Below are positions 2,073 to 34,645 of a stretch of DNA of 34,645 nt, in pieces. Source of the DNA: Chiloscyllium plagiosum. Taxonomy: Eukaryota. The stretch's first letter is position 1, and each line of letters begins with the position of its first letter. A model generated the notes under the pieces. It did not search any database. It worked only from the letters and a program-made list of their open reading frames with translations, and was not told the origin of the DNA. The stretch is from positions 10,761,341 through 10,795,985 of the forward strand of contig NC_057719.1 in assembly GCF_004010195.1 (NCBI RefSeq), written 5' to 3'. Position numbers and translations under genes: made by a program.

Positions 2073-2370
2073 TTGTTTTATTCTCTTGAATGTGAGCATT
2101 GCTGGCATTGGCAATATTTGTTGCCCATCCCTAATTTCCGCTGGATCTAAATAGCTTACTGACCCCTTTCAGAAGGTAGTGAAAAGCAACCTTACTGCTT
2201 TGGGTCTGGATTCACATGTATGTCAGACCAGCTATGGATGGTAGATTTCCTTCCCTAAAGAACATTAGAGAACCAGATGGGTTTGTACAACAATTGGCAG
2301 TGGTTAGATAGTCACCATTTCAGAGACTAGCTTTATATTCCAGGTTTATTAATTTAATTTAAATTTCACC
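2073..2370 (-). mobile_element. tRNA-derived SINE sharing the LINE-X 3' tail
   Basis: Reverse complement of the SINE at 19885-20215 (gatttccttccctaaagaacattagagaaccagatggg), with the tail ttgcccatccctaatt. Confidence 0.7.
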
Positions 2371-2508
2371 TAGGTTTATTTAGAAGCACTAGCTTTCGAG
2401 GCGCTGCCTCTTCATCAAGTGGTTGTGGAACAGGACCATAAGACACAGAATTTAGAGCAAAAGGATTACAGTGTCCTGGAGCTGTAATGACATATTAAAC
2501 AAATTTAG
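2365..2508 (-). repeat. Local copy of the PLE-B terminus including its hammerhead motif
   Basis: About 7 mismatches over ~138 nt versus 4975-5112. Minus strand reads TTGATGA-A-GAGGC-agc-GCCTC-GAAA-GC-TA. Confidence 0.85.
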
Positions 2509-2710
2509 GTTAGTCATTGCCATCATGTAACATTAACCTAGCAAAACGTGACAAAATAAATTATCAGACAACACGTGGCACTGAGCCACACAGTGGGGGT
2601 ACTGAGACAAGATGAACAAAAGGTTTCGAAGCAAGATTAGAGCGTATCTTAAAGGAGAGAAAAATAGAGGTGGAAAAGGGTTGAAAACAAGAATTCAAGA
2701 GCTTAGGTAG

Positions 2711-3376
2711 GTCACAGAGTCATACATTACAGAAGCAGATCCTTCATTCCAATCAGTCCTTGCCGAACATAATCCTAAACGAAACTAGTCTCATGCAGTG
2801 TTTGGCCCATATACCTCCAAACATTTCTTTTGGCTTTTAAATGTTGTAACTATATATGTATCCACCACTTCCTCTGGAAGTTCGTTCCACACATGAACCA
2901 CACTCTGTTTAGAAAAATTGCCTCTCATGTCTTTTATAAAACGTTCTCCTCTCACCTCAAAAATATGCCCCCTTGTCTTGAAATCCCCCACCCGAGGGAA
3001 AAGGCACGTGCCATTCACCTTATCTGTACCCCTCATGATTTTATACACTTTTATAAGGTCACCCTTCAAGCTCCTTTGCTCCAGAGAGAAAAGTCCCAGC
3101 CTCTAAGAGTCATAGAGTCATAGAGATACAAACCCTCCATTCCCACCATGTCATGGCAAATCTTTTCTGAACCCTCTCCAGGTAAATAATTTCCTCCCTG
3201 TAACAAGGTGACCAGCACTGGACACAATACTTCAGAAGAGGCCTCACCAACATCCAGTACAACCTCAACATGATTACCCAACTCCATTACTCAAAGGTCT
3301 GAGCAATGAAGGCAAGCTTGCTAAAAGCCTTCTTAACCACCCTGTGTACATGTGACACAAACTTCAAAGAATTATA
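2711..3376 (-). mobile_element. CR1/HER1-like LINE 3' fragments
   Basis: ORF MKGDLIKVYKIMRG...WNELPEEVV; gagtcata tail repeats at about 2717 and 3107. Confidence 0.9.
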
Positions 3377-3377
3377 G

Positions 3378-3680
3378 ATAGATAGATTACTTACAGTATG
3401 GAAACAGGCCCTTCAGCCCAACAAGTCCACACCGACTCTCCTAAGAACAACCCACCCAGACCCATTCCCCTACATTTACCCCTACACCTAACACTACGGG
3501 CAATTTAGCATGGCCAATTCACCTAACCTGCACATTTTTGGACTGTGGGAGGAAACCAGAGCACACCCACACAGACACGGGGAGAATGTGCAAACTTCAC
3601 ACAGACAGTTGCCTGAGGGGGGAATTGAACCCAGGTCTCTGGCGCTGTGAGGTAGCAATGCTAACCACCGTGCAGCCAAC
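3378..3680 (-). mobile_element. HE1-type V-SINE
   Basis: tRNA-like head (B box GGTTCAATTCC), V-domain gtctgtgtgaagtttgcacattctccccgtgtctg, and an (atct)n tail. Confidence 0.9.
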
Positions 3681-4136
3681 TAATTATGATTAAAGGCAGA
3701 CAGTGATGTAAAAGTTAGGGATAATCCAAAGATCAGAACTGGAGGAATGCAAAGAAGGGACAGTTGTGGTACAGTTATAGCTGGGATTATATTAAAATAA
3801 ATTTGTAAATGAAAATAATAGTTTAGTTTATAATGCTCTGGTCTGTGATGTCACTGCTGCGATCTGAAAAATCAGGATTTTTACTATAAAAATCATGAAC
3901 TGCATTTTTCTCAAACTTAAACCAATCTGGATTGCCATTTTTCTGTAATGTTCATTTGTGAATTATTTAATCCCTCATAGGTCAGAACTGTCCACACAAA
4001 CTGAATGATTGCATCTCACAGTGTTTCACGATAGTTTTAAAAACCTTACTTGTCATCAGTTGTGATTTTGCTTCAATAGACGTTAATGTTATGTTTCCCA
4101 ATCTAGTATGAGGCAGATTTCTGCAGGAATGTTCTA

Positions 4137-4303
4137 CAGTCAGTTCTGCTACAAAATGGTACTTATAAGAAAATCGCTTAATAGCATTTAAACTAATGGG
4201 GCCGAAATTGCGTTATAACCAATACAGACTTTAAAACTTTGTGCTTTATAAACAGTGTCCCGAACTCATGAGTCATGTTTTAGTGTTACAGGAGAATGAC
4301 CTG
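4137..4303. mobile_element. Putative Tc1/mariner (pogo/Tigger-like) MITE
   Basis: TA|CAGTCAGTTCTGCTACAA ... GTTACAGGAGAATGACCTG|TA: imperfect TIRs flanked by TA. Confidence 0.45.
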
Positions 4304-4833
4304 TATTTGGATTGACAGTTCTAAGGCCAAAATGTCCCTAAATGCAAGGCAGAATTTTATTATTACAGACCTGAACTTTGTTGTGGCTCTATAACTCAGC
4401 TTAGGCATTAATATTCATTTCAGGGTTACAGACAGTGGGGGAGATTCACCAAACCCTGCAAACCAAAAAAGAACTGCAGATTGTCTGTGTTCTTTAAGTG
4501 GGGGTCCCTTAAATTCATTTCTCTTGTTAGTATTATTCGTGAACAAGGACCTTACATCTCAGTGTCTTCCCTCATCTGACGTGTGGTGAACCTCACATCA
4601 AACCATCACCAGTTGTCTTTCTCGAATAAGAGAACAGCCCTATGGCTTGATAGGACTGTGGCAACTTAGCTGTGTAGGATCACAAGACAGACGTGCTTGA
4701 GCATTGAATTTGAGCTCAAATGTAAACTCACATATAACCTTTATAAAACCAGCAGCACAGCAAAATGCGTTACACAGGGTTAAGTTAAAAATCATACAAC
4801 ACCAGGTTATAGTACAAGAGGTTTATTTGGAAG

Positions 4834-4975
4834 GATTGAGGCTCCTTCCTAATGAAGGGCTTTTGCCTGAAAGGTCGATTCTCCTGTTCCTCGGATGTTG
4901 CCTGACCTGCTGTGCTTTTCCAGCACCACACTTTTTGACTCTGATCTCCAGCATCTGCAGTCCTCACTTTCACCT
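4834..4975 (+). mobile_element. PLE family A mini-element (hammerhead terminus) inserted in the PLE-B terminus
   Basis: TSD aggtttattt(g/a)gaag (4819-4833 / 4976-4990); core CTAATGA-A-GGGC-tttt-GCCT-GAAA-GG-TC (mutated). Confidence 0.85.
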
Positions 4976-5409
4976 AGGTTTATTTAGAAGCACTAGGTTT
5001 CAAGGCGCTGCCTCTTCATTAAGTGGTTGTGCAGCAGGACCATAAGCCACAGAATTTAGAGCAAAAGGATTACAGTGTCATGGAGCTGTAATGACATATT
5101 AAACAAATTTAGATTAAGTCTTTCATTTTTTTAGAATGCGATGCGCTAGTTTCGGCTCTATAACATGTAAATCCCAGAACTCCTGTTCAGTTACATTCTC
5201 AAGATAGCTTCAGCTTTTCTAACAATAGGTGTCATCTCAGCTCAGACAATGCTTTAAAGGTGTGAGGTTAAAGTTTGTCTGTGCATCAATTTTCAGTCAG
5301 ACTGATTCTATTTCTCAAGTGGGACTTACAGACTTTTACATGGATTTATGCAGTTTTTGAGCAAAATAAAACATAATTCTGCAAATACAAATTCACCCCA
5401 TAAACTTAT

Positions 5410-5672
5410 ATGTGTGCACGTGCAGGAGAGACAGAGTGAGTGTGTGCATGTGGTGTGAGTGCATGTGAGTGCATCTGAACAAGTATGTATACATGTGTGT
5501 GTAAGCTTGGTCAAGTATGTGTCTGAGGATGATAGGGTATAAGCCTGTGAGAGGGTATGTGCGTGGGTGTGAGTATGGTGACTGCATGTGTGTGAATATG
5601 AGAGAGAGCTTGTGTATAAGTGTGTGTATGTGTGTGTGTGTGTGTCTGTCTGTGTGTGTGTCTGTGTATTGT
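5410..5672. repeat. Degenerate (GT)n/(GA)n tract within the PLE-B 3' region
   Basis: Directly visible; an equivalent tract lies at 21295-21550 in the other PLE-B copy. Confidence 0.9.
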
Positions 5673-5777
5673 GTAGTGGGGTCACCTGTTCTGTGACATG
5701 AACCCAAGGTTCCGGTTGAGCCCATTTCCATGGGAACTGAACTTAGCTATCAGCCTCTGCTTGGCCACTTTGCATTG

Positions 5778-5915
5778 CTGAAGAAGGGCTTATGCCCGAA
5801 ACGTCGATTCTCCTGTTCCCTGGATGCTGCCTGAAGAAGGGCTTATGCCCGAAACGTCGATTCTCCTGTTCCCTGGATGCTGCCTGACCTGCTGCGCTTT
5901 TCCAGCAACACATTC
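5778..5915 (+). mobile_element. PLE family A mini-element with a perfect 53-bp tandem duplication of the hammerhead core
   Basis: Units 5778-5830 and 5831-5883 are identical (CTGAAGA-A-GGGC-ttat-GCCC-GAAA-CG-TC); perfect 16-bp TSD ccactttgcattgctg (5765-5780 / 5916-5931). Confidence 0.92.
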
Positions 5916-6789
5916 CCACTTTGCATTGCTGCTTTTCCCGAAGTCCGCCTTGGAGAACGGTCACCCGAAGGTCCGAGGCCGAATGTCCCGGACCGCTGAA
6001 ATGCTCCCCTACCTGGTGATTGTTGTGTGGTGTCCATTTGTCCATTGTCATAGCGTCTATTCGTTCTCATCAATGTACCATGCCTTAGGATATCCCTGCC
6101 TACGCTGGCCGAATCACGAGTGCCTGCCGTGTACACTGTGGGTGGTGTCCACACGTGTAACGGTGGTATCTGTGTCGACACTCTGACACGTCTTGCAGTA
6201 GTTGCCGTGACAGAGTTGTACAGTGTTGTGGTTGATGTTGTCCTGAAGGCTGGGCAGTTTGCTGCGAACAATCATTTGTTTAAAGTTTAGTGGTTGTTTA
6301 AAGGCGAGGCGTGGAGGTGTAGGGAAGGTCTTGGCGAGATGCTCATCCTGATCGATAATGTATTGCAGGCCGCGAAAAACATGGTGCAGTTTTTTGGCTC
6401 CCGGGAAGGACTGGACAACGAAGGATACAGCCCGAGTCTGTCTCCTGAGGAGGTCATTCTGGTTTCTCGCTGTGGCACATCAGAACTGGTGGTCGATGAG
6501 TTGAGAGTTATACCCTGTTCTTATGAGGGCATCCTTGAGCACTTTCAGACGTCCATCATGTTCCTCCTGATCAGAACAGATCCTGTGTATGCGTAGGATT
6601 TGTCTGTAGGGGTTGGCAGTTTTAATATGTTTCAGGTGGAAGCTAGAGAAGTGTAGCATTGTGATGTTACACAGGGTTAATTAATTACACAGCAATTGTT
6701 GAATGTCACTTCAGTAAAAAATGATAGTTCTGAGCTAAAATGTAGATATGAAGAGTTAAAGTAAATAAAGCTGAAACTAAAATTAGTCT

Positions 6790-7990
6790 TTATTATTGCA
6801 GGAGTCTGGTTGCCTTGCTTGAGGAAATTTTTCTCAAATAGTTGTGCTCCAGAACTTACTGGTCCCCAGGCCAAGCTGTCCCGGTACAGTTACAGTTACA
6901 ACACTGGCTTCTTCCTGGCAATGTGGAAAATTGCCCAGATATGTCCTTTTTACAAAAAGCAGGAACAACTTAATCTGGCCAACTATCACACCATCAGTTT
7001 ACTCTCAGTCATCAGAAAAGTGATTGAAGATGTCATTAATAGTGTTATTAAGCAGTACCTGCTCAAAGACACCCAGTCCAGGTGCACTCAGCTCCGGACC
7101 CTATTATAGCCTTAGTCCAAATCAAGAGCTGAACAGAGAAGTTGAGGTGAGAGTGACTGCCCTTGACATCAAGGCTACATTCAACCTTGCAAAACTGGAC
7201 TCAATGGGAATTAGAAGGAAGACTCTCTGCTGGTTGAAGATATACCTGTCACATAGGAAGATGGTTGTGATTGTTGGAGGTCATCCATCTCAGCTCCAGG
7301 ACTTCCTTATTGGAGTTCCTCAGGGCAGTGTCCTAGGTCCAACCAATGACCTTCCCTCTATCATAAGGTCAGAATTGGGGATATTTGTCGATGATTACAC
7401 AATGTTCAGCACCATTTATGACTCCTTAGGTACTGAAGGAGTCCACATCTCTTTGCAGTGAGATCTGGACTGACAAGTGACAAGTACCATTTGCACTATA
7501 TAAGTGAGAGGCAACGATCATCTTCAAATAGAGAGAATCTAACCATTGCCCTTGGCATTAAATGGCAGTACAATCACTGAATCGCCCACTAACAACATCC
7601 TGAGGGTTAACTTTGACCAGAAACGCAACTGGACTAGCCATATAAATACTGTGACTGTCGGAGCACGTTAGAGGTCAGGAACCCTGCAGCAGGTAGCTCA
7701 TCTCCTGATTCACTAAGGCTTTCCACCATCTACAAGGTATAAGTCAGGAGTGTGCTGGAATACACCCCACTTGCCTGGTTGGGTGCACCCCCCAATGACA
7801 CTCAGGAACCTTGACACCTTCCAGGACAAAGCAGGCCACTGATTGGCACTACATCCACAAATGTTCATTCCTTCCACCATCAATGCTCAGCATTCATCCA
7901 GGCTCCTTAGACAGCACCTTCCAAACTCACGGACACTACCATCTTGAAGGACAGGAGCAGCAGATACCTGGGAACACCACCACCTCCAAC
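6790..7990 (+). mobile_element. LINE-X reverse transcriptase remnant (frameshifted)
   Basis: WKIAQICPFYKK..ANYHTISLLSVIRKVIE, ALDIKATF, GVPQGSVLGP and FVDD are non-LTR RT motifs. Confidence 0.9.
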
Positions 7991-8021
7991 TACACTTTCA
8001 TGACAGTAATTTTGCCTGTGA

Positions 8022-8120
8022 CAAACATAGAGATTGCTGGAAGAACTCAGCAGGTCTGGCAGCATCTGTGGAGAGAAATCAGAGTTAATGCTTTTAGTCC
8101 AGTGACCCTTCCTCAGAACT
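8022..8120 (-). mobile_element. PLE-type family C terminus with degenerate hammerhead
   Basis: Minus strand gttCTGAGGA-A-GGGTC-actg-GACT-AAAA-gcattaactctg...tctccacagatgctgccagacctgctgag. Confidence 0.7.
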
Positions 8121-8689: not shown

Positions 8690-9245
8690 GGCCACACTGT
8701 CATCACTGTCCAACAACCAGAACCATCTTCCTATGTGACAGGTATGACTCCAAGCAGCAGAGAGTTTTCCTTCTAATTCCTGAAGAAGGGCTCATGCCCG
8801 AAACGTTGATTCTTTTGCTCCTTGGATGCTGCCTGACCTGCTGCGCTTTTCCAGCAACACATTTCCAGCTCTGATCTCCAGCATCTGCAGTCCAAACTTT
8901 CTCCTTGATGTCAAGGGTAGCCACTCTCACCTCAACCTCTCTGTTCAGCTCTTGATTTGGACTAAGGCTATAATAGGGTCGGGAGCCAAGTGGACCTTGC
9001 AGAACCAAAACTGAGTGTCTCTGAGCAGGTGCTGCTTGATAGCACTGTTAATGACACCTTCTATCACTTTACTAATGACTGCGAGTAAACTGGTAGTGTG
9101 ATGACCGGGCAGATTGAATTTGTCCTACGTTTTGTAAAAAGGACATATCTGGGCAGTTTTCACATTGCCAGGAAGAAGCCAGTGTTGTAACTATACCGGA
9201 ACAGCATGGCCTGGGGAGCAGTAAGTTCTGGAACACAGGTGTTCT
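8690..9245 (-). mobile_element. Inverted duplicate of the LINE-X RT segment (about 6845-7280)
   Basis: Shares the exact string gaccctattatagccttagtccaaatcaagagctgaacagaga with the + copy; both ORFs read PYYSLSPNQELNREVEVRV. Confidence 0.85.
8775..8904 (+). mobile_element. PLE family A mini-element with near-intact hammerhead core
   Basis: CTGAAGA(8780-8786)-A-GGGC-tcat-GCCC-GAAA-CG-TT, followed by the family A tail ending ctttctcc. Confidence 0.85.
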
Positions 9246-9276
9246 TGGACTTCAGATGCAAATCCTGACAACCTTT

Positions 9277-9590
9277 AGATTAGATTAGATTACATTACAG
9301 TGTGGAAACAGGCCCTTTGGCCCAACAAGTCCACACCGACCCGCCGAAGCGCAAACCACCCATACCCATACATTTACCCCTTACCTAACACTACGGACAA
9401 TTTAGCATGGCCAATTCACCTGACCTGCACATCTTTGGACTGTGGGAGGAAACCAGAGCACCCGGAGGAAACCCACGCAGACACGGGGAGAATGTGCAAA
9501 CTCCACACAGTCAGTCGCCTGAGGTGGGAATTGAACCCGTGTCTTTGGTGCTGTGAGGCAGCAGTGCTAACCACTGTGCCACCGTGCTAC
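9277..9590 (-). mobile_element. HE1-type V-SINE
   Basis: A box TGGCACAGTGG, B box GGTTCAATTCC, V-domain and (tctaa)n tail. Confidence 0.92.
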
Positions 9591-9602
9591 CCTATAAATA
9601 GG

Positions 9603-9735
9603 GGCCGAGAGTGTACTGCTGATTCCTGATGAAGGGCTTATGCCCAAAACGTCAATTCTCCTGCTCCTTGGATGCTGCCTGACCTGCACACACTCTTGAC
9701 TCTGATCGCCAGCATCTGCAGCCCTCACTTTCTCC
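9603..9735 (+). mobile_element. PLE family A mini-element
   Basis: CTGATGA(9626-9632)-A-GGGC-ttat-GCCC-AAAA-CG-TC; a short inverted remnant lies upstream and aaatagg occurs on both flanks. Confidence 0.8.
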
Positions 9736-10395: not shown

Positions 10396-11563
10396 ACTGG
10401 CAGTTGGTGGTGTTCTGTGCCTTAGTTAACAGAGGAGATTCCATATTCTTAACTATCTTATCAACTTGTCCCACTACTTTCAGGAAAAGTTTGGACAGAA
10501 GCTCAAAGCCTCTGACTTCCTCAACAGGTCGCAGTGTCCTCTTATCTATTCTGGATATCTTTGCCTTCTTTGACGTCCAAATGCATTGACTCAGATGTCT
10601 CTATACTGAGTTCCTTTTGCTACTTCTCTACCTGCCTGTCCAGTCCAATGTTAATTTCCTGCAGTCTTTGGACCACGATATCTGTTGTTGGATTCAGTGC
10701 TAACTTGGACAGACATGTTCTCTGGAATTCAATAATGTTGCTCTCTCCATTTTTTTCACATTGAAACTATCCTACTTAATAGTGGGGTAGTTAAAACCTC
10801 CTCCTATTATTGTCCTGCTGTTTTTACATTTCTCAGTTATTTACCCATATATCCACACCTCTATCACTCTGTGACCTTTTTGGCGATCTATGGTACAGTC
10901 CGAGTTGTGTAACCTCCCCTTGATATATTCCTTGGTTCAATCCATTTGACCTCATTTGCTGAGCCTTCCAACACCCTCCTCATGACTCTCATTGTTGCTT
11001 TGACCAAAGCCATCACCCACCCCTTTCTTTTTAATTCCCTTTGCTATTGCATCTAAAAACCCTGTAATTAGGAACCCTGAGCTATTATTCCTGTCCCTCT
11101 TTAAGCCGTTCCTGTTTTAGTTGTGATATCAAATTGCCAAGGTTCAATCTGTGCCCTCATCCCACTTGCTTTACTCGCTCATCTCCACAACTTGACCTAA
11201 ACATCCTGACAAACTCTTTCTCTTTATTCTCTAGCCTTTCTTTCCTCTACCTTCCAAACTCACTCGCATAATTTTCTGCCTTCCGTTTTCATTTCCCATT
11301 TTGTTTTATCTGAACTTACACTCCATTTCCCATTTCCTGAGTTCAAACCCTGCCCAACAGTATTAGCAAACCCTTCCCCCCCACCCTGCCATGACATTTG
11401 GCCAGGGCAAGGTGACAGGCTGCAAACATACTCAATTTGCACAGACCACACATCCCTAAAGCAGGTCCCAATGTACTAGGAATCTAAAACCCCTTTTTTC
11501 TTGCACCATGTCTCAAGCCACATCTTCATCTGCTTGATCCGGTGATATTTATGGCAATAGGAA

Positions 11564-12327
11564 AAGGAGAGGGTGGATCCTGTTGAGCGGTTCCCTGGGC
11601 AGACTGTCAAAGTCATTTGGCAGAATGTCTCATCGCCAGACATGGCTTGGCTGGTGGTGAAAAGGGCTCTGCCTGTGAGATCCTTTATGCACGCCCGGAC
11701 TCTCAGCCACACCACATGCTGCCCTCGAAGCGGCTGTGGGGGGGGACAAGATGGTCACACACCTCCTTCTGGAATGTGCCTGTGCAGAAGAAGTCTGGAG
11801 AGGAACGCAGTGGTGTTTGTCGAGGTTCGTCCCGAATAGCTCCGTGACACGGGACTCCGTGCTCTATGGTCTGTTCCCTGGGACGCACACTGAGACGAAC
11901 ATCAACTGTGCCTGGAGGATCATCAACTCAGTCAAAGACGCTCTTTGGTCTGTCCGAGACCTGTTGATCTTCCAGCTGAAGGAGTTGACCCCGACTGAGT
12001 GTTGCAGACTGGCACTTTCCAAGGTCCAGGACTACATGTTGAGGGTTGCACTGAAGGTTGGGGCAGCTGCCGCCAACGCACGGTGGGGAAAGACCACCGA
12101 GTAAGGTCTGCCCACCAAAGAAGAACAGGGGGCCCACTCAGCCATTGGGCTCCACTGACGCCTCAGCTAAATACCTGGGTGGTCACCATACAGACTTGTA
12201 TATATGAATGATTAATTCCGGTCTCTGTATGTAAAGAAATGGAATGTATACATATCTATGGCATCACCAATTGTATAGATATCAAAATAATTATATGAAT
12301 AAAGTATATTTTTGAAATTAAAAAAAA
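11564..12327 (+). mobile_element. Tx1/L1-clade LINE 3' end (zf-RVT region, 3'UTR, polyA)
   Basis: MAWLVVKRALPV...CPRSGC/VTHLLLECACAEEVW zinc knuckle with a frameshift in the G run; stop at 12104; AATAAA at ~12298 plus A tract; TSD ttatggcaat(a/g)ggaa (11549-11563 / 12328-12342). Confidence 0.88.
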
Positions 12328-12853
12328 TTATGGCAATGGGAATAATGTGGAACTTATTACCATTGAGGCTTTTTACTCTTTTTCATAATTCCTTAAACTC
12401 AACCCTCAGGACCTCACCTCTTTCTTTACCTATTCTGATGATATCAAGATGCATCACAATCTCTGGCACCAAGGTGCATCAAGATACAGGCAACTTTCCA
12501 TTGGACAGCCATTGAACCTGATACCAAGGAGACAATATACATTTATGGATTCATGTCTGTGGCCAAAAAAATGTGCATTGGCAGAATTCCTGATCACAAT
12601 TACTCTTGCAGTCTTCTTTGTACTTCAGTTTAGCACAGCTGGACTTACACTGGCTGCAACTCCCAGTCGCTTGCATCAGAATTCCTAACGGAATGTTGGC
12701 TAGGGAATGGGATACGTTCATGTAACTCCTGCAGTATCGATAGTAAATGCTGGCCCAGCCAGCGATGCCCAGGTTCCACCTGTGAGTTTAAAAAGACTTG
12801 ATTAGTTCTGGTTTAAATATTATAACTTCTCATATTTAGATGTGGTTAAATAT

Positions 12854-18742: not shown

Positions 18743-18855
18743 GATTTAGGTCAGAGTGGTGCTGGAAAAGCACAGCAGGTCAGGCAGCATCCGAGGAGCA
18801 GGCAAATCGACGTTTCAGGCAAAAACCCTTCATCAGGAATCTTTTGCCACTTTTG
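18743..18855 (-). mobile_element. PLE family A mini-element
   Basis: 16-bp TSD cctttggt(c/t)caatcag (18727-18742 / 18856-18871); minus-strand core CTGATGA-A-GGGT-tttt-GCCT-GAAA-CG-TC. Confidence 0.88.
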
Positions 18856-18885: not shown

Positions 18886-19207
18886 GGGGTGGCATGGTGG
18901 TTCAGTGGTTAGCACTGCTGCCTCACAGCGCCAGGGACCCGGGTTCAATTCCAGCCTCAGGTGACTGTCTGTGTGGAGTTTGTACATTTTCCCTGTGTCT
19001 GCGTGGGTTTCCTCCGGGTGCTCCGGTTTCCTCCCACAGTCCAAAGATGTACAAGGTTAGGTGAATTGGTCATGCTAAGTTGACCCATAGAGTTAGGTGC
19101 ATTAGTCAGGGGGAATGGGTCTGGGTGGGTTACTCTTCGGAGGGTCGGTGTGGACTAGTTGGACCAAAAAGCCTGTTTTCACACTGTAGGGAATCTAATC
19201 TAATCTA
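18886..19207 (+). mobile_element. HE1-type V-SINE
   Basis: A box TGGTTCAGTGG, B box GGTTCAATTCC, V-domain and (aatct)n tail. Confidence 0.92.
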
Positions 19208-19246: not shown

Positions 19247-19428
19247 TCTATGAGACAGTAAGGACTGCAGATGATAGAAGTTCGAGTCAATAGATATGAA
19301 GCTGGAAGAGTACAGCAGATCAGACAGCACCCGGGGAGCAGGAAAGTCAAGGTTTCAGGCTGAAATCCTTTGTCAGGTTTTGGCCTGAAACGTTGATGCT
19401 CCTGCTCTTCGGATGCTCTGACCTTCTT
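19247..19428. mobile_element. Older family A-like fold-back mini-element
   Basis: TSD tgctcctgg (19238-19246 / 19429-19437); minus arm followed by plus arm cctgaaacgttgatgctcctgctc. Confidence 0.75.
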
Positions 19429-19884
19429 TGCTCCTGGCCCAAATCCCTCCAAACCTTTCCTATTCATGTACTTATCTATTCATGTACTTATTCATGTACT
19501 TAAACTGTTGTAACTATGCCTGCATCCGTGACTTCCTCTGGAAGTTCATTCCCTACGTGAACCACCCTCTGTGCAAAAAATATTGCCCCTCATGTCTTTT
19601 TTAAATCTCTCTCCTCTCGCCTTAAAAATATGCCTCCAGTCTTCAAATCACTCATCCTAGAGAAAATATACCTGCCATTGACCCTATCTATACCCCTCAT
19701 GATTTTGTAAAACTCAATAACCTCCTAACCTCCATTAAAAAATGTCCCAGCGTTTCCAGCCTCTCCTTATAACTCCAATGTTCCATACCATACAACATCC
19801 TGGTAAATCTTTTCTGAACCCTCTCTCGCTTAATAATATCCTTCCTATAATAGGCTGACCAGAACTGGATGCAGTATTCCAGAG

Positions 19885-20215: not shown

Positions 20216-20841
20216 TCAAAAAGGCACATAAGGAGTGTGAGCCTAGTGGCTCACAATCTTTAGCCTGAGTCAGACTCCTTGCCTAACAGCACTGTGATTG
20301 GACAAAGACTGCAGCAGTTCAAAAAGACAGCTCAGCACCACCCTCTGCAGGGCAACTAGGGATGGGCGTTACATGCTGACCTAGCCAGTGACTCCATATT
20401 CCATGAATATATAAAAAAGAAACATTTGTGTGTTCCAGTCCCATTCCAGAGATGAGATAGGGCAACATCTAGGCTGATACCACAATATAGTGCTGAGGGA
20501 GTGTTGTACTGTTGGTGGCACTGTTTTCAGATTAGTTATTAAACTGAAAATCTGTCTGTGCTTGTTAACAAACACCAAGACAATCCTGGCAATATTGATC
20601 CTTCAACAAACATCAGTAAACCTGGTCACCATCACATTAGCTGTTCCTTAGGACGTTCCTCTGTACAAACTGTTACGATCCCAGTTGACCCCACTATTGG
20701 ACAAGTCAGATTCAACAAATGAAATCTGGCTTAATAGATCATGTTTTATTTACTGTTGTGATCTGTCACGATTTTATGAAACATAAGCACTCCAGGCTAC
20801 AGAGATGGTTTTAACAAAACAGGAGTGAATTACCTAAAAAA

Positions 20842-22925
20842 AAGTTAAAAATCACACAACACTGGGTTATAGTCCAACAGGTTAATTTGGAAGCACCAGC
20901 TTTCGGAGCGCTATTCCTTCATCAGGTGGTTGTAGAATAGAATCATATGATACAGAATTTAAAGCAACAGGATTGCGGTGTCATGGAATAAGATGTTAAA
21001 CAAATTTAGTTGGAGTCTTTCATCTTTCAAAGTGACCATGTTAGTTTTTATTTCTTTATATATAAATCCCAGAACTTTTTTAAAGTTACATTCTCAAAAT
21101 AACGAACAATAGCCAACATCTCAGCTCAGATAATACATTGAAGGTGTGAAGTTAAAGCCTGTCTGTGTCCCAATGTTAGGTCAGACTGATTCTATTTCTA
21201 AAGTAGGATTTACAGAATTTTACATGGATTTATGCAGTTTTTGAGCAAAATAAAATGTAAATCAGCAAATACAAATTTACCCCACAAACTTATATGTCTG
21301 TGTGTTCAGGGAGACCGAGTAAATGTGTGCATGTGGGTGTGTGTGGGGGTGTATGAGTGTCTGTGAACGAGTGTGTGTATGTGTGTGAGTGCAATGGGGT
21401 ATAAGTCTGTGAGAGGGTGCGTGTGTGGGCATGAGTGTGGGGGGTGTATATGTGTGAACATATGAGAGAGAGATTGTGTATGAGAGATGGTGTATGGATC
21501 TGTAGGGATGTGTGTGTGTACGTGCACTTGTGTGCATGTGTATGAGAGAGTGGATATTGCAATGGGGTCATCTGGAGTCTGACATGAACACAAGGTAATC
21601 CGAAGTTCCAAGGCTGAATGTCACGGAGCGCTGAAATGCTCCCTGTCTGGGAGGGAACACTCCTGCCAGGTTGATTGTTATGTGGCGTCCATTCATCCAT
21701 TGCTGTAGCCTAAGCTTGGTCTCACCAATGTACCATGCCTCTGGGCATCCCTGCCTGCAGCATACGAGACAGATAACATTGGTCAAGTCACGAGTACCTG
21801 CTATGTACAAATTGGGTGGTGTCTCCATAGGTAATGGTGCTATCCATGTTGACACTCTGAAATATCTTGCGGTTGCTGCCATAGCAGGGTTGTACAGTGT
21901 TGTGGTCAATGTTGTCCTGAAGGCTGGACAGTTGACTGCAAATAATCTTCTGTTTAAGGTTTGACAATTGTTTAAAGGTAAAACGTGGAGGCGTAGGGAA
22001 GATCTTGGTGAGGTACTCATCCTCATTGGTAAGGTGTTGCAGGCTGCGAAGAACATGGCGTAGTTTTTTGGCTCCTGGGAATTATTGGACAAACCACGCA
22101 ATATTCTTCACAGCCTGCAACATATTATTGATGAGGATGAGCACCTCACCAAGACCCTCCCTATGCTTCAATTTCTTGACTTTAAACAAGCACCAAACCT
22201 CAAACAGATCATTGTTCGCAGCAAACTGTCCAGCCTTCAGGATAACATCGATGACAACACCATACAATGCTGAAATGGCAACCACTGCAAGATATGTCAG
22301 AGTGTTGACACAGATACCACCATTACCTGTAGGGAGACCACCCCACCGTGTACGTGACAGATACTCATGTGACTTGGCCAACTTTGTCTACGGTGTCCCC
22401 ACTTGAATGTACACTCTCTCATACACACACACACACAAGTTTGTGGAGTAAATTTGTACTTGCTGATTTACATTTTATTTTGCTCAAAACTGCATAAATC
22501 CATTTTTAAAATCTATAAATCCTACTTTAGAAATAGAATCAGTCTGACCTAACAGTGGGACACAGACAGACTTTAACTTCACACCTTCAATATATTATCT
22601 GAGCTGAGATGGTGCCTATTGCTAAAAGCTATCTTGAGAATGTAACTTTATAAAGTTCTGGGATTTATATATGAAGGAACCAAAACTAACATGGTCATTT
22701 TGGAAGATGAAAGACTCAAGCTAAATTTCTTTAATATTACATCCCATGACACTGCAATCCTGTTGCTATAAATTCTGTGTCATATGATTCTGCTCCACAA
22801 CCACCTGATGAAGGAGCAGCGCTCTGAAGGCTAGTGCTTCCAAATAAACCTGTTGGACTAAAACCTGGTGTTGTGTGATTTTAACTTTGTCCACTTCAGT
22901 CCAACACTGGCATCTCCAAATCATG
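20842..22925. mobile_element. PLE family B fold-back (inverted) element with GIY-YIG remnant
   Basis: TSD acctaaaaaa (20832-20841 / 22926-22935); NVICLVCCRQGCPEAWYIGETKLRLQQWMNGR on the minus arm; arms invert at ~22065-22091; hammerhead motifs at ~20895-20928 (-) and 22802-22836 (+). Confidence 0.9.
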
Positions 22926-22973
22926 ACCTAAAAAATAAACTAAAATAAAAGAAACCAAGCTACATATACAGAT

Positions 22974-24874: not shown

Positions 24875-24965
24875 TTGATTTTGGGAGCACCTCCCTTCCT
24901 CTTTTATGCTTTTCGCACGCTGCATGGCAGGTTTGTTTGTGAGGCAGAGGTGAGTTGCCAATTAA

Positions 24966-25058: not shown

Positions 25059-25059
25059 A

Positions 25060-27339: not shown

Positions 27340-27960
27340 TCGCTTTTGCATAAGGTGTGAGCATCAGTGGCAAGTCCAGCATTTTCTGCCCCTGAACCAA
27401 GTGACTGGCTGGGCCATTTTAGAGGGTCAGCCCCCACATTATTCTGCTCTGTTGTCACATGATGTCCTATTGTAAAGTACATTAGTGAACTTTTTTTAAC
27501 AACAATGAATTTCAGTTGTCAAGATAAACATCACAGCACGGTGGCACAGTGGTTAGCACTGCTGCCTCACAGCGCCAGAAGCCTGGGTTCAATTCCCGCC
27601 TCAGGCAACTCCCTGTGTGGAGTTTGCAAATTCTCCCCGTGTCTGCGTGGGTTTCCTCCAGGTGCTCTGGCTTCCTCCCACAGTCCAGAAATGTGCAGGT
27701 TAGGTGAATTGGCCATGCTAAATTGCCTGTAGTGTTAGGTGTAGGGGAATGGGTCTGGGTGGGTTGTGGGTCGGTGTGGACTTGTTGGGCCAAAGGGCCT
27801 GCTTCCACACTGTAGGTAATATAATCATTGAGACAAAGTTTACATTCCAGATTTATCCATTGAATTTAAATTAAAATAATGATGGGATTTGAACCCTTTC
27901 CTCCAGAGATTTAACTAAACCTCTGAGTTGCTAAATCCAGTGATGTTATCACTGTGCCAA
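27340..27960 (-). mobile_element. tRNA-SINE (LINE-X tail family) interrupted by HE1
   Basis: Homologous to 2073-2370; B box gggatttgaaccc at ~27884. Confidence 0.6.
27534..27826 (+). mobile_element. HE1-type V-SINE
   Basis: A box TGGCACAGTGG, B box GGTTCAATTCC and V-domain. Confidence 0.92.
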
Positions 27961-28954: not shown

Positions 28955-29155
28955 GTTTAGATCAGAGTGGTGCTGGAAAAGCACAGCAGGTCAGGCAGCA
29001 TCCGAGGAGCAGGAAAATCAGGAATCCTAATGAAGGGCTTTTGCCCAAAACATCGATTCTCCTGCTCCTCAGATGCTGCCTGACCTGCTGTGCTTTTCCA
29101 GCACCACTCTGATCTAAACTTTGGTTTCCAGCATCAGCAGTCCTCATTTTTGTCT
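28955..29155 (+). mobile_element. PLE family A fold-back mini-element (65-bp arms, hammerhead in loop)
   Basis: Arms 28955-29019 and 29055-29119 pair at 63/65; loop gaatc-CTAATGA-A-GGGC-tttt-GCCC-AAAA-CA-TC-gattc; TSD agggattccc (28941-28950 / 29156-29165). Confidence 0.9.
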
Positions 29156-29166
29156 AGGGATTCCCC

Positions 29167-29260
29167 TGATCAAAAACTATGGTGCTGGAAAAACACAGCC
29201 AGCCAGACAGCATCCGAGGAGCAGGAGAGTCGACGTTTCGAGCATAAGCTCGTAATCAGG
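29167..29260 (-). mobile_element. PLE family A mini-element variant
   Basis: Minus-strand core CTGATTA-C-GAGC-ttat-GCTC-GAAA-CG-TC. Confidence 0.8.
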
Positions 29261-29585
29261 AATTCCCATGGTTTGTTTCTTAATTCCCATTCAAGCGGGA
29301 ACTGGATTTAACACGCAAAGGAAAAGGTTACAGAAAGACTGACTGTAAAAGTGCAGGTGAATGGAGCTAACTAGATAGCTCTGTCGAAAAGCAGACATGA
29401 TGGCCAGAATGGCCTCTTTCTGTGTTGGTTTATTCTATGAGTACAGGGTCGCTCATATTCAGTTTCCAGCTGGCTAAGCCTATCCTTTCTTTGCATTGGG
29501 AGAGGACAGCATTATATATTCGTTCCATTGCGGACTGTCACCTTTTGTGTGAAAGACGCTGTTCTTTTACAGTGACCTCTCTGCA

Positions 29586-29790
29586 AGTTCTGATAGAACA
29601 AAAAAGCTGACAGGCAGGAATATCCAGAGCTCTGCTGCTGTAGCCACTGATGTTCTGATAAGACTGCTTATCAGCACAAACAGTGTCCTGAAATGCTATT
29701 AGCCGTGAAGTCTATTTTACTGAAAGTGAAACTGCAGGCAGTCACCCATCATTTGTTTATCTCACTTTTCCTTCCTTCTTCCACATGTTT
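29586..29790. promoter_or_regulatory. Candidate enhancer: GATA palindrome, IRF, ETS and Fox motifs
   Basis: CTGATAAG-actg-CTTATCAG (29655-29674), TGATAG 29591, TTATCT 29757, GAAAGTGAAACT 29722-29733, CAGGAA 29615, TGTTTAT 29754, all in apparently non-repeat DNA. Confidence 0.4.
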
Positions 29791-29876
29791 TGAAAGACAG
29801 AGAGAAAAAAAATTAGAGAGAGAAAAATAAAGAGAAAGACAGCAAAAGAGGAAGAAAGGGAGGGGAAAAAAAGAGG

Positions 29877-30245
29877 AAAGTGTGCATTTACATAGTAGCT
29901 TTCATGGGGTTAGGACATTGCAAAGTACCTTCCAGGCAATACCACTGATTTGTAGTTATGCAGCAACCAATTTGTGCACAGAATGCTCCTAAAAACAGCA
30001 ATGTGGTGATGACCAAATTATCTGATTGACTGAGGTTGTTTAGTGCCATTTTTTACATCTCCCTAAGAGTGTACAAGGAACTTCATTTATCAGCTCAGCA
30101 AAGAAACAATGTTTTTGACAGAACCACGCCCCCTCAGGTCTGTACATGGCAGGTTGACCCAGGTATTGTGCAGAAGACCCTGTGTATCAGAGACTTGAAC
30201 ACAACCTTCATACTCCAAGGTAAGATCGCTAGCGAGTGAATGGCT
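29877..30245 (-). mobile_element. Deu-domain SINE (old), preceded by a GA-rich tract at 29795-29880
   Basis: tgcatttacatag...gcagcaaccaatttgtgcacag...aacagcaatgtggtgatgacca...tagtgccat...gacttgaacacaacctt. Confidence 0.7.
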
Positions 30246-30579
30246 TGGCAGAATCAAACTCCGTCACATACCTTCCATCTCCAGCTCTTTCTTTCTTCAG
30301 AACTGGGGTTTTGGGGTCTCCTTCCACTTGTGTCACATGATGCTGGGCTGAGCTGAGTCACTGTTAGAGCATTCTGAGAAGCTTTGTGCATGTCAAGTTG
30401 GGCTCATATACTTCTGACTCAGCGCCAAATGCAACCGCAAAGCTAAAGGTGTGCTCCTGATTAAATATCTTTCCATCCATTGCAACTTTTCTTTTGCTCT
30501 TCAATTTTACAACACTATCACAATCAGTCAGCTTCAAAAATATCTCGCACTCCCTGATAAGCTCCAATAACTTTTGGAA

Positions 30580-31114
30580 TATTGCATGCAATTCTGGTCT
30601 CCTTCCTATCGGAAGGATGTTGTGAAACTTGAAAGGGTTCAGAAATTATTTACAAGGATGTTGCCAGGGTTTGGAGGATTTGAGCTGTAAGCAGAGACTG
30701 AATAGGCTGGGCCTGTTTTCCCTGCAGCGTCGGAGGCTGAGGGGTGACCTTGCAGAGGTTTATAAAATCATGAGGAGCATGGACAGAATAAATATAAAAA
30801 GTCTCTTCCCTGGGGTGGGGGAGTCCAGAAGTGGAGGGCATAGTTTTAGGGTGAGAGGGGAAAGATATAAAAGGGACCTAAGGGGCACCTTTTTCACACA
30901 GAGGGTGGTGAGTGTATGGAATGAGCTGCCAGAGGAAGTGGTGGAGGCTGGTACAATTGCAACATTTAAAAGGCATCTGGATGGGTATATGAATAGGAGG
31001 GGTTTACTGGGATATGGGCCAAGTGCTGGCAGCTGTGACTAGATTAAGTTAGGATATCCAGTCGGCATGGATGCGTTGGACTGAAGGGTCTGTTTCCGTG
31101 ACTCTATGACTCTA
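30580..31114 (+). mobile_element. CR1/HER1-like 3' end (relatively young)
   Basis: RLNRLGLFSLQRRRLRGDLAEVYKIMR...FFTQRVVSVWNELPEEVVEAGTIATFKRHLDGYM; tail gactctatgactcta. Confidence 0.93.
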
Positions 31115-31149
31115 AATGTCCTTTTCCTCCCTTTCGTCCCTATTGAAAG

Positions 31150-31480
31150 TTTGAAGAGGTTCTTTTCTCCAGAGAACAAGAAAGATGAGCAGTGATCTGT
31201 TGGAGGGGTTTGCTATGAGACATACAGAATATCTGCTGGGAGAAAAGATCAAAATTAGGGGCTAACGTGAGAGTTAGGCACCAATAAATTCCGTAGGGTA
31301 TTAAGGAGAAATCTCTTCACCCGGGCAATGTTAAGAATGTGGAACTTGCTGGCCACAAAAAGTAACTGAGGTGAATTGGAAAGATACCTTTAAGGTGAAG
31401 CTAGAGAAATATCTGTTGGGAGAAAGGTCTTAGTGATGCAGTTAGAATTAGTTAAAATAGGATAATACAAGCTCATGGAG
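31150..31480 (+). mobile_element. Old CR1 fragment
   Basis: aggagaaatctcttcacc...agaatgtggaacttgct...tttaaggtgaagctaga. Confidence 0.55.
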
Positions 31481-31489
31481 AAACCCATT

Positions 31490-32690
31490 GAAGGCAATGA
31501 CCATCTCCAATAAGAGAGAATTTAACTTTCACTCTTTGATATTCAGTAGCATCTCCCTCACCGAAATCCTCAGTTTTAACATCTCGGATTATCATTGATC
31601 AGAAACTGAACTAGACTCGTCATATAAGTACTGCCGCTGCAAAGGTTGGTGAGAGGCTAGGAATCCTGCAGCATGTAACTAACTTCCTGACTCCCCAAAG
31701 TCAATCCACCATCTCCAAGGTACAAGTCAGGAGTGTGATGAAATACTCCCCACTTGCCTGAATGGGTGTAGCTCCAACAACACCTCAAGAGGTTTGACAC
31801 CATCCAGGACAAAGCAGCCTGCCTGTTTGGCACCAAATTCAGAAGCATCCACTCCCTTCACCATTGATGCTCAGTAACTGCAGTGTGTATGATCTACAAG
31901 CTGCCCTGCAGAAGTTCAATAACGATCCCTAGACAGCTGTTAGAACCCTCACTGATCTTTCATTGTTTTTATTTAGTTTGGAACTGTGAGCTGAAAATTA
32001 CCTTTGGTCTGTAGGCAGCAGTTGTGTTAAACAAAAAAGCAGAATAAACAAGCTAGAAGTTAATGGCAAGTTGACTCTTGAGTGAAACATTCCAACAGAA
32101 TATTTGGCACTTGTAGAGAGCAGTACGTCCAAGTAGGTAGCAGATATTTGGCCGTTAGAAAGATCAGTACCTGGGATCTGGTTTCAGTAAGACTGGGAGA
32201 GACCATATGCTCCAGTGGATGGCAGATGTTGAATGCTAGCCAGGACTTTATGGGAAGGCAGTCAGTCTAAAAAGGAGAGGCCAGAGTTTGAATTGGGTTT
32301 GGACTGTTTTCTGGGAGAAGGAGTTTTGTTGCTGATGCTACAGCATGAAGGTTAGAAAGCTCCCTATCTCACGTCTCATTATCAGTTGTGAGAAGTTCAG
32401 AGATTAAAAACTAAGGTATAAGTATTGCTGACCTCTTCAGAGTGAACTGAAACGGTGAAATCTTGAGAAAATCAACCAAGAAACAATCATCTCTGTCTTT
32501 GGAACAATTCCAAGCCACTGGCCACCCTAACTTGGAATAACATCACTGTTCTTTCAGTGTCACTGGGTCAAAATCTTGAAATTCCTCCCTAACAGTGTTG
32601 GTTCAAGAAGGCACCTCACCACCACTGTCTGGAATGGGTAATAAATGCCAGCCCAGCCAGCAATGCCCACTTCTCCTGAATGAATCTTTT
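31490..32690 (+). mobile_element. LINE-X 3' end with an unrelated ~560-bp insert (31938-32500, begins TGTTAG; possibly partial LTR)
   Basis: Homologous to 7510-7920 and 26700-27062 on either side of the insert. Confidence 0.75.
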
Positions 32691-33406
32691 TATTTTAAAT
32701 ATGTGGAACGGAAATACCAGCGAAGTTGCAATGGATCATTTTAAACTCAAAAATAGATCAGAACAAAATGATCCTGATCAAGTTATTGTTCTTTGTGTTA
32801 TTGTAGAAACTTACAAATAGGATAGACCCCATTGTTTCTGAAATCGAAAACTGTCTGATCTACCTCAGTTAACCAAGGGAAGATAAAGTATTTCAAAACA
32901 TGAATAACAAGTTAAGCAGGCTGTTTCATGCTGATACTATGCAGGATGTTGCTGTCAATCCTAATAAAGCATTCTACCTACAACACAACTAAGCAACATC
33001 ATATATGAAATTCAGTGTAAGTGAGGTACACAGATAAAACATCTCAACAATTGGTTTGACCAAATCATGTCCCTTCAGATGTTAGTTATAGACAGAGAAC
33101 TTAACTGACCTGCTTTTCCAAAACCCAAATGAAAATCCATAGTTAAATATAATTCTTTGTTTGGGTTGAACTTGTCCAACAACATTGAGTGTTATAACAA
33201 CTGTACTAATCACCCATTTAAGATAATCTGTTCAGCCAGATACAATGATATGGTGGAACTCATTCTTTGGAAATGAATGGAATATAGGGGATCCCCGATT
33301 AATATACCTCTGACTTACAAATGTTCATATGTGATCTCATACTGGGGTGTAAGTTTAAAATATCTGACATATCAACCTTTCCTGTACCGATGAATGGCTA
33401 GTTTAT

Positions 33407-33710
33407 TAGATTAGATTACTTACAGTGTGGAAACAGGCCCTTCGGCCCAACAAGTCAACACCGACCCGCCAAAGTGCAACCCACCCATTCCCCTACATTT
33501 ACCCCTTCACCTAACACTACGGGGAATTTAGCATGGCCAATTCGCCTGGCCGGCACATCTTTGGACTGTGGGAGGAAACCAGAGCACCTGGAGGAAACCC
33601 ACGCAGACACGGGGAGAATGTGCAAACTCCACACAGTCAGTCGCCTGAGTCGGGAATTGAACCCGGGTCTCTGGCGCTGTGAGGCAACAGTGCTAACCAC
33701 TGTGCCACCA
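33407..33710 (-). mobile_element. HE1-type V-SINE
   Basis: A and B boxes, V-domain and (tctaa)n tail; close to 9277-9590. Confidence 0.92.
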
Positions 33711-33749
33711 TATTGTTCTGTATTGTGTACTAACTTATGCATAAATTGA

Positions 33750-33945
33750 AATAAAACAAAGAACTGTGGATGATAGAGATCTGAAACAAAAACAGATATT
33801 GCTGGTGAAATTCGGCAGGTCTGGCAGCATCTGTGGGGAGAAGGCAGAGCTGATGAGAGTCATCGGACTTGAAATGGTACCTCTGCTTTCTCCCCACAGA
33901 TGCTGCCAGACCTGCTGAGTTTTGCTTGCAATTTCTGTCCTTGTT
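33750..33945. mobile_element. Family C fold-back mini-element with hammerhead core at the apex
   Basis: Arms 33815-33849 / 33881-33915 (35 bp, one G-U) enclose CTGATGA-GAGTC-atcg-GACTT-GAAA-tggtac; diverged TSD (gcataaattga / gtatgaattga). Confidence 0.85.
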
Positions 33946-34044
33946 GTGTATGAATTGACTTGTGAATGGATTCAGGAAGGGAACATGTTTGCAAGCCCAG
34001 CACTGCCTGTATGTCCAAGCCTTGAGCATCCGTTGAATTCTTCG

Positions 34045-34645
34045 AGGAGAAAGTGAGGACTGCAGATGCTGGAGAACAGAGCTGAAAATGTGTTGCTGGA
34101 AAAGCGCAGCAGGTCAGGCAGCATCCAAGGAACAGGAGAATCGACCTTTCGGGCATAAGCCCTTCTTCAGGAATGAGGAAAGTGTGGGGGGAGGGGAAAT
34201 GAGGAAACTGGAGAAATCTGAGTTCATCCCTTGTGGTTGGAGGGTCCCAGGCAGAAGATGAGGCGCTCTTCCTCCAACTGTCGTGTTGCCATGGTCTGGC
34301 GATGGAGGAGTCCAAGGACTTGCATGTCCTTGGTGGAGAGGTAGGGGGAGTTAAATGTTGGGCTACGGGGTGGTTGGGTTGGTTGGTCCGGGTGTCCCAG
34401 AGGTGTTCTCTGAAACGTTCCGCAAGTAGGCGGCCCGTCTCCCCAATATAGAGGAGGCCACATCGGGTGCAGCGGATGCAATAGATGATGTGTGTGGAGG
34501 TGCAGGTGAATTTGTGGTGGATATGGAAGTGTCCCTTGGGGCCTTGGAGGGAAGTAAGGGGGGGCGCAAGTTTTGCATTTCTTGCAGTTGCAAGGGAAGG
34601 TGCCCGGAGTGGAGGTTGGGTTGGTGGGGGGTGTGGACCTGACGA
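34045..34645 (-). mobile_element. Penelope-like element family A 3' end: Zn knuckle, GIY-YIG endonuclease and hammerhead terminus (runs off window)
   Basis: Manual translation FPCNCKKCKTC/...KFTCTSTHIIYCIRCTRCGLLYIGETGRLLAERFREHL; terminus CTGAAGA-A-GGGC-ttat-GCCC-GAAA-GG-TC at ~34141-34169. Confidence 0.92.

What the first reader, a model, noticed from the sequence alone, without database searches (positions are those of the whole stretch)
2365..34175. Swarm of minimal hammerhead-ribozyme motifs from three PLE-type families, with stem-II covariation
Seen: more than a dozen copies of CTGANGA-(A)-stem-GAAA-NN-TH (about 2390, 4849, 5000, 5778, 5831, 8090, 8780, 9626, 18810, 19350, 20900, 22805, 29027, 29232, 33850, 34141). 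Stem II changes while staying paired: GGGC/GCCC vs GAGC/GCTC (family A), GGAGC/GCTC(C/T) vs GAGGC/GCCTC (family B), GAGTC/GACTT (family C). Stem III is reduced to a palindrome (ACGT or AGCT). Established: Penelope-like elements carry minimal type-I hammerheads in their terminal repeats, thought to cleave as dimers. Inference: structure was under selection in the source elements. Many copies here now have core mutations.
Basis: partly seen in the sequence, partly recalled or inferred. Interest (0 to 1): 0.7.

Follow-up and report, generated by a model that had tools for sequence, protein, structure and literature searches.

The report
Decaying Penelope hammerhead stubs, shark-type genome
These self-cutting-RNA motifs are real but are the known minimal hammerheads at the ends of Penelope-like jumping genes, present in over 100,000 neutrally decaying copies in this genome, and most copies begin at the motif's first letters rather than at its cutting site, so they likely record where the element's RNA starts.

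Summary
All 16 listed sites are copies of hammerhead-bearing repeats; exact cores with a stem occur 6 times against 0.07 in shuffles. Only 5 of 16 keep all core letters and 4 also keep the palindrome. They are pLTR/tail pieces of RT + GIY-YIG Penelope-like elements with a Neptune-type linker. A and C are one related lineage group; B is separate. The genome holds 87,506 exact-core A and about 20,000 B copies. Compensatory changes are real but are a few subfamily events: the A-U swap in A is 23-fold over independence, and the B double swap has 55 copies. G-U closing pairs are CpG decay, and the lethal G12A change is as common as the harmless wobble (54 vs 62), so inserted copies are unselected. 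Extra: 5' ends pile up at the start of helix I, about 30 nt after a TATA-like box, not at the cleavage site; head-to-head pairs carry one short and one long tail (61 of 64). This fits double priming on uncleaved, likely capped RNA. The motif is known (Cervera 2014), and this scan noted the same features before in this and other shark-type genomes.

The parts
2390..2418 (-). Family B hammerhead (GAGGC/GCCTC subfamily), C3>U; lies in 2364-2512, a local duplicate of 4968-5116
4849..4876 (+). Family A hammerhead, G5>A and 15.2 changed; stub 4842-4975 inserted into the tail of a family B element
4994..5022 (-). Family B hammerhead (GAGGC/GCCTT), C3 and G5 mutated; 3' end of a longer B copy that runs to about 6668
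5685..6668 (-). Broken RT C-terminus / linker (CX4CxxC) / GIY-YIG of the family B element, interrupted by the A insertion at 5773-5918
   Evidence: tblastn with the L090 protein, E 7e-47; translation
5778..5805 (+). Family A hammerhead, core intact, helix I 5' arm lost; first unit of a 53-bp tandem duplication
5831..5858 (+). Family A hammerhead, core intact, helix I 5' arm mostly lost; second unit
8088..8116 (-). Family C hammerhead, G12>A, decayed
8780..8807 (+). Family A hammerhead, core and palindrome intact (GUU site); stub 8773-8905 with long tail
9626..9653 (+). Family A hammerhead, G12>A (CpG decay); starts G-ATTCC
18809..18836 (-). Family A hammerhead, core and palindrome intact; stub starts at -4 after a G and ends at +80
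19349..19376 (-). Family A hammerhead, G8>A, decayed; long arm of the head-to-head pair 19248-19432
20897..20925 (-). Family B hammerhead, N17 is G; short-tail arm (ends +84) of the inverted insertion 20841-22926
21594..22391 (.). Broken GIY-YIG/linker fragments of family B in both orientations (21594-22041 minus, 22116-22391 plus), centre of the inverted insertion
22805..22833 (+). Family B hammerhead, A14>G; long-tail arm (ends +122) of the same insertion
29027..29054 (+). Family A hammerhead, G5>A and G12>A; long arm of the head-to-head pair 28956-29158
29232..29259 (-). Family A hammerhead of the GAGC/GCTC subfamily, G8>U; stub -4 to +89
33850..33878 (+). Family C hammerhead, U16.1>G, in the fold-back unit 33749-33945
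34143..34170 (-). Family A hammerhead, core intact but 15.2 C>G breaks the palindrome; long-tail arm (ends +126)
34304..34561 (-). GIY-YIG endonuclease fragment of the family A element, upstream of the 34170 hammerhead on the same strand; the element runs into an assembly gap, with an inverted pLTR beyond it

Best explanation
The motifs are minimal type-I hammerheads in the terminal repeats of RT + GIY-YIG Penelope-like retroelements, and the window's copies are neutrally decaying end-pieces that were likely reverse-transcribed from uncleaved element RNA. Shown: position downstream of PLE frames, copy numbers, subfamily-level compensatory changes, neutral decay, 5' ends at the helix I border, two 3' end classes about 35 nt apart, and one of each class in head-to-head pairs. 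Inferred: transcription starts at the first base of helix I, about 30 nt after a TATA-like box. The element protein nicks both target strands and primes at two internal RNA sites (about +85-90 and +120-125). Each cDNA runs toward the RNA's 5' end, giving 90-130 bp stubs or, when both are joined, mirror-image insertions with the tail on one side. Longer copies come from longer transcripts or earlier stops. From the literature, untested here: the ribozyme cleaves slowly, as a dimer through the A-CG-U or A-GC-U palindrome or with help from the element protein, and cleavage is not needed to make these copies.
For: PLE frames upstream of A and B. 87,506 A, 20,169 B and 504 C exact-pattern copies, reversed-pattern controls 0. 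A pair 10.2/11.2 genome-wide: G-C 87,506, A.C 1,333, G.U 1,077, A-U 378 vs 16 expected. B double swap in 55 copies on many contigs. Helix I third pair in genome family D: G-C 13, U-A 6, C-G 5 of 26. Neutral decay: C11.1>T 62 vs G12>A 54 among 242 core-covering copies, p 0.52; non-CpG core mismatch 3.2% vs tail 4.2%, p 0.12. 5' ends: A 100 of 168 within -10..+10 of C3, 6 of 168 within 4 nt of the cleavage site; B 27 of 52 and 5 of 52. Short+long tail in 42 of 45 A and 19 of 19 B pairs that have two classifiable ends. TATAAA at -36..-40 in 21 of 46 B copies; TTTTAT at -36 in 30 of 152 A copies. G before the -4 start in 58 of the first 100 listed of 9,727 matches vs 26% expected. PMC11167929 (parts 1-2 of 4 read): two internal RT starts, both strands cut and extended, unprocessed RNA the main template, ribozyme protein-assisted.
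Against: No cleavage, start-site or cap data were obtained. The profile models were seeded with exact-core copies, which favours intact cores. Boundaries come from local alignment and blur by a few bases; the +5 peak is probably partly an artefact of the variable N7. The G before -4 is shared with the target duplication in most solo copies where one is visible (7 of 8 by eye, two of them near-identical duplicates) and with the other arm in some inverted copies, so it cannot simply be called untemplated; target preference or microhomology explains part of it. The A box is a weak TATA match. Helix I of most A copies is weak (2 bp, U.U, 1 bp). No complete element was recovered: the long loci are broken or run into gaps.
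Confidence: 0.85

Rival explanations
1. Same PLE origin, but the 5' ends cluster because reverse transcriptase stalls or switches template at the folded hammerhead, or because short target homology (ATT) fixes the join, not because the RNA begins there.
For: The boundary coincides with the structure; starts spread from -10 to +10; junction microhomology such as GAT or GATT is frequent; the anole protein prefers ATT targets (PMC11167929, part 1 read).
Against: A stall should fall at the 3' side of the structure or inside stem II, not just past its 5' edge. The modal start differs by family (-4 in A, -8 in B) yet lies 30-32 nt after the T/A box in both. G is enriched before the start also at arm-to-arm joins (9 of 12).
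Confidence: 0.25
2. The short units are an independent non-autonomous hammerhead retroelement (a non-LTR retrozyme or SINE) that spreads through self-cleaved, circular RNA.
For: Very high copy number of ORF-less 90-130 bp units; one 53-bp tandem dimer in the window (5778/5831); retrozymes derive from pLTRs and were found in one chondrichthyan (bioRxiv 10.64898/2026.07.22.740005, parts 1-3 of 5 read).
Against: The units are dispersed or head-to-head, not head-to-tail arrays. They match the pLTR of ORF-bearing copies at up to 97%. Their ends do not map to the cleavage site. The tandem dimer has lost its helix I arms.
Confidence: 0.08
3. The dispersed copies are kept by the host as functional ribozymes.
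For: Tens of thousands of copies still have an intact core.
Against: G12>A is as frequent as the harmless C11.1>U; pair-breaking A.C is as frequent as G.U; the core decays like the tail. Intact copies are explained by youth.
Confidence: 0.03

Closest known systems
Minimal hammerheads (min-HHR) in pLTRs of metazoan PLEs (Cervera and de la Pena 2014, PMC4209133; parts 1-2 of 4 read)
   Same: Type-I core, unpaired base between 9 and 10.1, G10.1-C11.1, palindromic 15.2/16.2, short helix I, several consensus families per genome, mostly single dispersed motifs, some in opposite-strand pairs.
   Different: Sharks are not named in the parts read. Copy number here (over 100,000 exact cores) is more than ten times their coelacanth (about 4,000) and Xenopus (about 9,000) counts, obtained with different descriptors. 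Helix II is short (4-5 bp).
Neptune-clade endonuclease-positive PLEs (Craig et al. 2021, PMC8557442; passages read)
   Same: RT then C-terminal GIY-YIG with CCHH, CX2-5CxxC linker, 5'-truncated and inverted copies, a 30-40 bp tail at one end only.
   Different: Clade assigned by motif only; no tree was built, so Nematis is not excluded by test. Insertion into microsatellites was not examined.
Poseidon element PAc of Anolis carolinensis (Frangieh et al. 2024, PMC11167929; parts 1-2 of 4 read)
   Same: Two RT start sites bracketing the tail, both strands extended, uncleaved RNA as template, ATG inside the hammerhead (family A has an ATG in loop II of most subfamilies).
   Different: Different clade. 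Their data are in vitro; here only genomic footprints. A start site at helix I and a cap-derived base are not reported in the parts read; supplements were not seen.
Non-LTR retrozymes (Li et al. 2026, bioRxiv 10.64898/2026.07.22.740005; parts 1-3 of 5 read)
   Same: ORF-less hammerhead units related to pLTRs.
   Different: Defined as tandem repeats with a hammerhead in each unit; only the decayed 5778/5831 dimer resembles this.

Membership tests
Metazoan PLE minimal hammerhead | Core CUGANGA / GAAA / UH in type-I order | tested here: met
   Majority letters in all families; 5 of 16 window copies intact; 89 of 135 A tile copies
Metazoan PLE minimal hammerhead | Helix II with G10.1-C11.1, an unpaired base after A9, and compensatory changes | tested here: met
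   few independent events
Metazoan PLE minimal hammerhead | Palindromic 15.2/16.2, no stable helix III | tested here: met
   CG in A, C, D; GC in B
Metazoan PLE minimal hammerhead | Helix I of at least 3-4 bp | tested here: inconclusive
   B 3 bp, C 4 bp, D 3 bp; A has 4 bp in one subfamily (10 of 118) but U.U at pair 3 in 91 of 118
Metazoan PLE minimal hammerhead | Located in the pLTR of a PLE | tested here: met
Metazoan PLE minimal hammerhead | Self-cleavage as dimer or protein-assisted | not testable with these tools
   needs an assay
Rfam hammerhead families | Covariance-model hit | tested here: not met
   no hammerhead family at E<=10
EN+ Penelope-like element | RT followed by C-terminal GIY-YIG with CCHH | tested here: met
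   L084 and L090 frames; RVT_1 above cut-off for L086 and L087, below for L090; GIY-YIG just below cut-off
EN+ Penelope-like element | Inverted 5'-truncated copy and a 30-40 bp tail at one end | tested here: met
EN+ Penelope-like element | Complete pLTR-ORF-pLTR unit | tested here: inconclusive
   none complete among 20 long loci fetched
Neptune clade | CX2-5CxxC linker before GIY-YIG | tested here: met
   A protein L084; B seen in the window translation 6114-6479, though the script's pattern did not match the L090 copy
Neptune clade | RT phylogenetic placement | not tested
   no reference PLE proteins at hand
Non-LTR retrozyme | Head-to-tail tandem units each with a complete hammerhead | tested here: not met
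   one dimer among the 16 window sites, with broken helix I; not counted genome-wide

The most novel reading that the evidence does not exclude
In these shark-type PLEs the hammerhead is the capped first ~30 bases of the element's transcript. A dimeric RT primes both nicked target strands at two fixed internal RNA sites and runs each cDNA off the cap, so the genome's hundreds of thousands of stubs are a nucleotide-level in vivo record of PLE insertion from uncleaved RNA. The conserved ribozyme would then act on the 5' leader (decapping or turnover of its own RNA) rather than in making the template.
Probability: 0.5. Interest if true: 0.6.

Novelty: new member of a known kind. Interest (0 to 1): 0.3.

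Why it matters
The added value is mechanistic. PLE insertion and the purpose of their ribozyme are open questions, and the end statistics give in vivo support for the two-start, two-strand model seen in vitro, with two sharp predictions (start site at helix I, cap-templated base).

Tried and rejected
Rfam scans gave no hammerhead hit; the miRNA hits are the fold-back insertions and lie far below gathering scores. Cleavage-site-defined 5' ends were rejected as the main class (6 of 168 A, 5 of 52 B). G-U at the stem II base as covariation was rejected (CpG decay). Family C stem II A-U swap: 12 of 43 in tiles (p 0.019, alignment unreliable because loop length varies), but only 3 of the first 100 of 504 pattern matches against about 1.6 expected (hand count), so not counted as established. 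Expression: no RNA holder listed on record. Laying 4 runs found no place where many molecules begin or end; one raw-read run laid nothing, the other is a single-cell poly(A) library under another coded organism label, so this is no test of start or cleavage sites. Loose ends at the -4 position there (146 reads) reflect genomic stub boundaries inside longer RNAs. MFE folding of two monomers gave only stem II or an alternative fold. Lunse et al. (dimer cleavage) could not be read; it is cited through the review PMC6765202 (passages). No R-scape run and no calibrated covariance model. Literature searches for prior shark reports and for start-site or cap reports found none beyond those cited; the library lacks most subscription papers, and no supplements were read.
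Full report
Setting. The window lies in a 3.56-Gb genome. It is repeat-rich vertebrate DNA with tRNA-derived SINEs and CR1-type LINE fragments; the names HE1/HER1 and the label 'shark-type' are recalled, not from a call.

Observation. All 16 coordinates map to hammerhead-bearing repeat copies. Exact CTGANGA...GAAA with a stem of at least 4 bp occurs 6 times against 0.07 in 30 shuffles. Most copies are damaged: 5 of 16 keep all 13 core letters, 4 also the 15.2/16.2 palindrome, 2 also the first two helix I pairs. Several are not independent: 2364-2512 duplicates 4968-5116, including the last bases of an A stub; 5778/5831 is a 53-bp duplication within one insertion; 20925/22805 are two arms of one insertion. 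Rfam does not detect them.

What they belong to. The A motif at 34170 lies downstream of a GIY-YIG fragment on the same strand, and an inverted copy lies beyond the gap at the window's end. Elsewhere, frames with RT (YIDD) and GIY-YIG precede A (L084) and B (L090, L086, L087) motifs. The A and B proteins are 28.5% identical. C shares A's 3' tail and has GIY-YIG fragments upstream in 2 of 20 loci, 44-46% identical to the A protein. The CX2-5CxxC linker (for A, for B) marks Neptune or Nematis rather than Penelope/Poseidon according to PMC8557442 (passages). No tree was built and no complete element was found in 20 long loci.

Abundance. Exact-pattern counts are 87,506 (A), 20,169 (B) and 504 (C), with reversed controls at 0. 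In 137 tiles taken at round coordinates (1.32 Mb without gaps) the profiles found 237 A, 65 B, 72 C and 37 copies of a fourth family D that is absent from the window. The window is roughly two to three times denser than the tile average, by criteria that are not identical; I did not test this.

Covariation. For the second stem II pair of A the genome holds G-C 87,506, A.C 1,333, G.U 1,077 and A-U 378, against 16 expected if the changes were independent. The A-U form is therefore a founder subfamily, one event. The B form with two adjacent swapped pairs has 55 exact copies across many contigs but 0 among the first 100 listed B matches: again one real, rare subfamily. Helix I also covaries: D's third pair is G-C 13, U-A 6, C-G 5 of 26; C's second pair is U-A 19, C-G 5 of 31. 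The C stem II claim is not established (see Tried and rejected). The core is kept across families whose stems and flanks differ. This supports selection on structure in the source elements, on a handful of events.

Decay. The closing C11.1 and the catalytic G12 form a CpG. Among 242 core-covering tile copies C>T occurs 62 times and G>A 54 times (p 0.52). Non-CpG core positions differ in 43 of 1,350 cells and tail positions in 109 of 2,584 (p 0.12; columns with over 10% variation dropped from the tail set). Inserted copies are not under detectable selection, and G-U closing pairs are not covariation. The profiles were seeded with intact cores, a bias toward conservation.

Ends. Of 182 A and 55 B tile copies that reach the tail at 80% identity or better, 168 and 52 had usable flanks. 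5' ends lie within -10..+10 of C3 in 100 of 168 A and 27 of 52 B copies, within 4 nt of the cleavage site in 6 and 5, and further upstream than -20 in 20 and 6. The mode is -4 in A and -8 in B. TATAAA stands at -36..-40 in 21 of 46 B copies and TTTTAT at -36 in 30 of 152 A copies, counted over all loci held, many of which lack upstream sequence: 30-32 nt before the modal start. 3' ends fall in two classes, about +80-95 and +118-127. 91 of 168 A and 35 of 52 B copies have a head-to-head partner. One short and one long tail are found in 42 of 45 A pairs and 19 of 19 B pairs; 3 of 48 and 2 of 21 pairs were left out because one end was shorter than both classes. Window pairs follow the rule where both ends could be mapped (20841/22926, 28964/29150). 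Where the start is at -4, the preceding base is G in 58, A in 30 and T in 12 of the first 100 of 9,727 matches (hand count), against 26% G expected. In 30 loci inspected, that G is often also present in the target duplication or the partner arm, so a cap-templated base is plausible but not shown.

Mechanism. The best fit is the model in Best explanation. It agrees with the in vitro anole element, which starts RT at two internal sites, extends both strands, uses unprocessed RNA and has a protein-assisted hammerhead (PMC11167929). The tail at one end and the inverted copies are described features of PLEs (PMC8557442), as is a promoter in the pLTR (PMC6765202 passages). What the ribozyme does remains untested; slow dimeric or protein-assisted cleavage is the literature view (PMC4209133). 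PMC6155905 (passages) adds only background.

Verdict. It is a new instance of a known kind, in a host group where I found no dedicated report apart from one chondrichthyan in a 2026 preprint. The scan has 1,247 notes holding the same words, several with the same start-site and double-priming readings; these are unreviewed AI notes and are not counted as support. Interest 0.3; the start-site and double-priming reading would merit about 0.6 if confirmed.

Noticed in passing
L042, L063, L116, L107 and other tiles (not in the window): A fourth hammerhead family (D) with a longer, bulged helix II, three Watson-Crick forms of one helix I pair and TATAAA at -47..-53; its parent element was not sought.
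   Followed up: partly
window 34170 - and most family A subfamilies: An ATG sits in loop II and opens a frame through the tail, as in the anole element whose ORF starts inside the hammerhead; the TTTT- and CTGT-loop subfamilies lack or shift it.
   Followed up: no
window 34171-34186: The long A copy lacks about 170 bp of the region between the endonuclease end and the hammerhead compared with L085 and L077.
   Followed up: no
window 4782-5116 and 5773-5918: Two family A stubs are inserted inside one family B element (one in its tail, one near its ORF end), so A was active after that B copy inserted.
   Followed up: partly
window 2364-2512 vs 4968-5116: A 149-bp local duplication, 95% identical, 2.6 kb apart, that copies the junction between an A stub and a B element.
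   Followed up: yes
window 11476-12330 +: The 3' end of another non-LTR element (Cys-rich frame at 11679-12104, A-rich tail); no Pfam hit.
   Followed up: no
window 3375-3673, 9276-9583, 18892-19207, 27535-27826, 33405-33711: Five copies of a 300-bp tRNA-like SINE (name HE1 recalled), plus many CR1-type LINE 3' fragments.
   Followed up: no
L006 and 14 or more of the 20 long loci: Assembly gaps often fall in the middle of inverted PLE insertions, so complete elements are probably under-assembled.
   Followed up: no
L043, L103, L117, L074, L131 (family C tiles): A family C subfamily appears to carry UUGACAA in place of CUGANGA in several copies, a shared core change.
   Followed up: no
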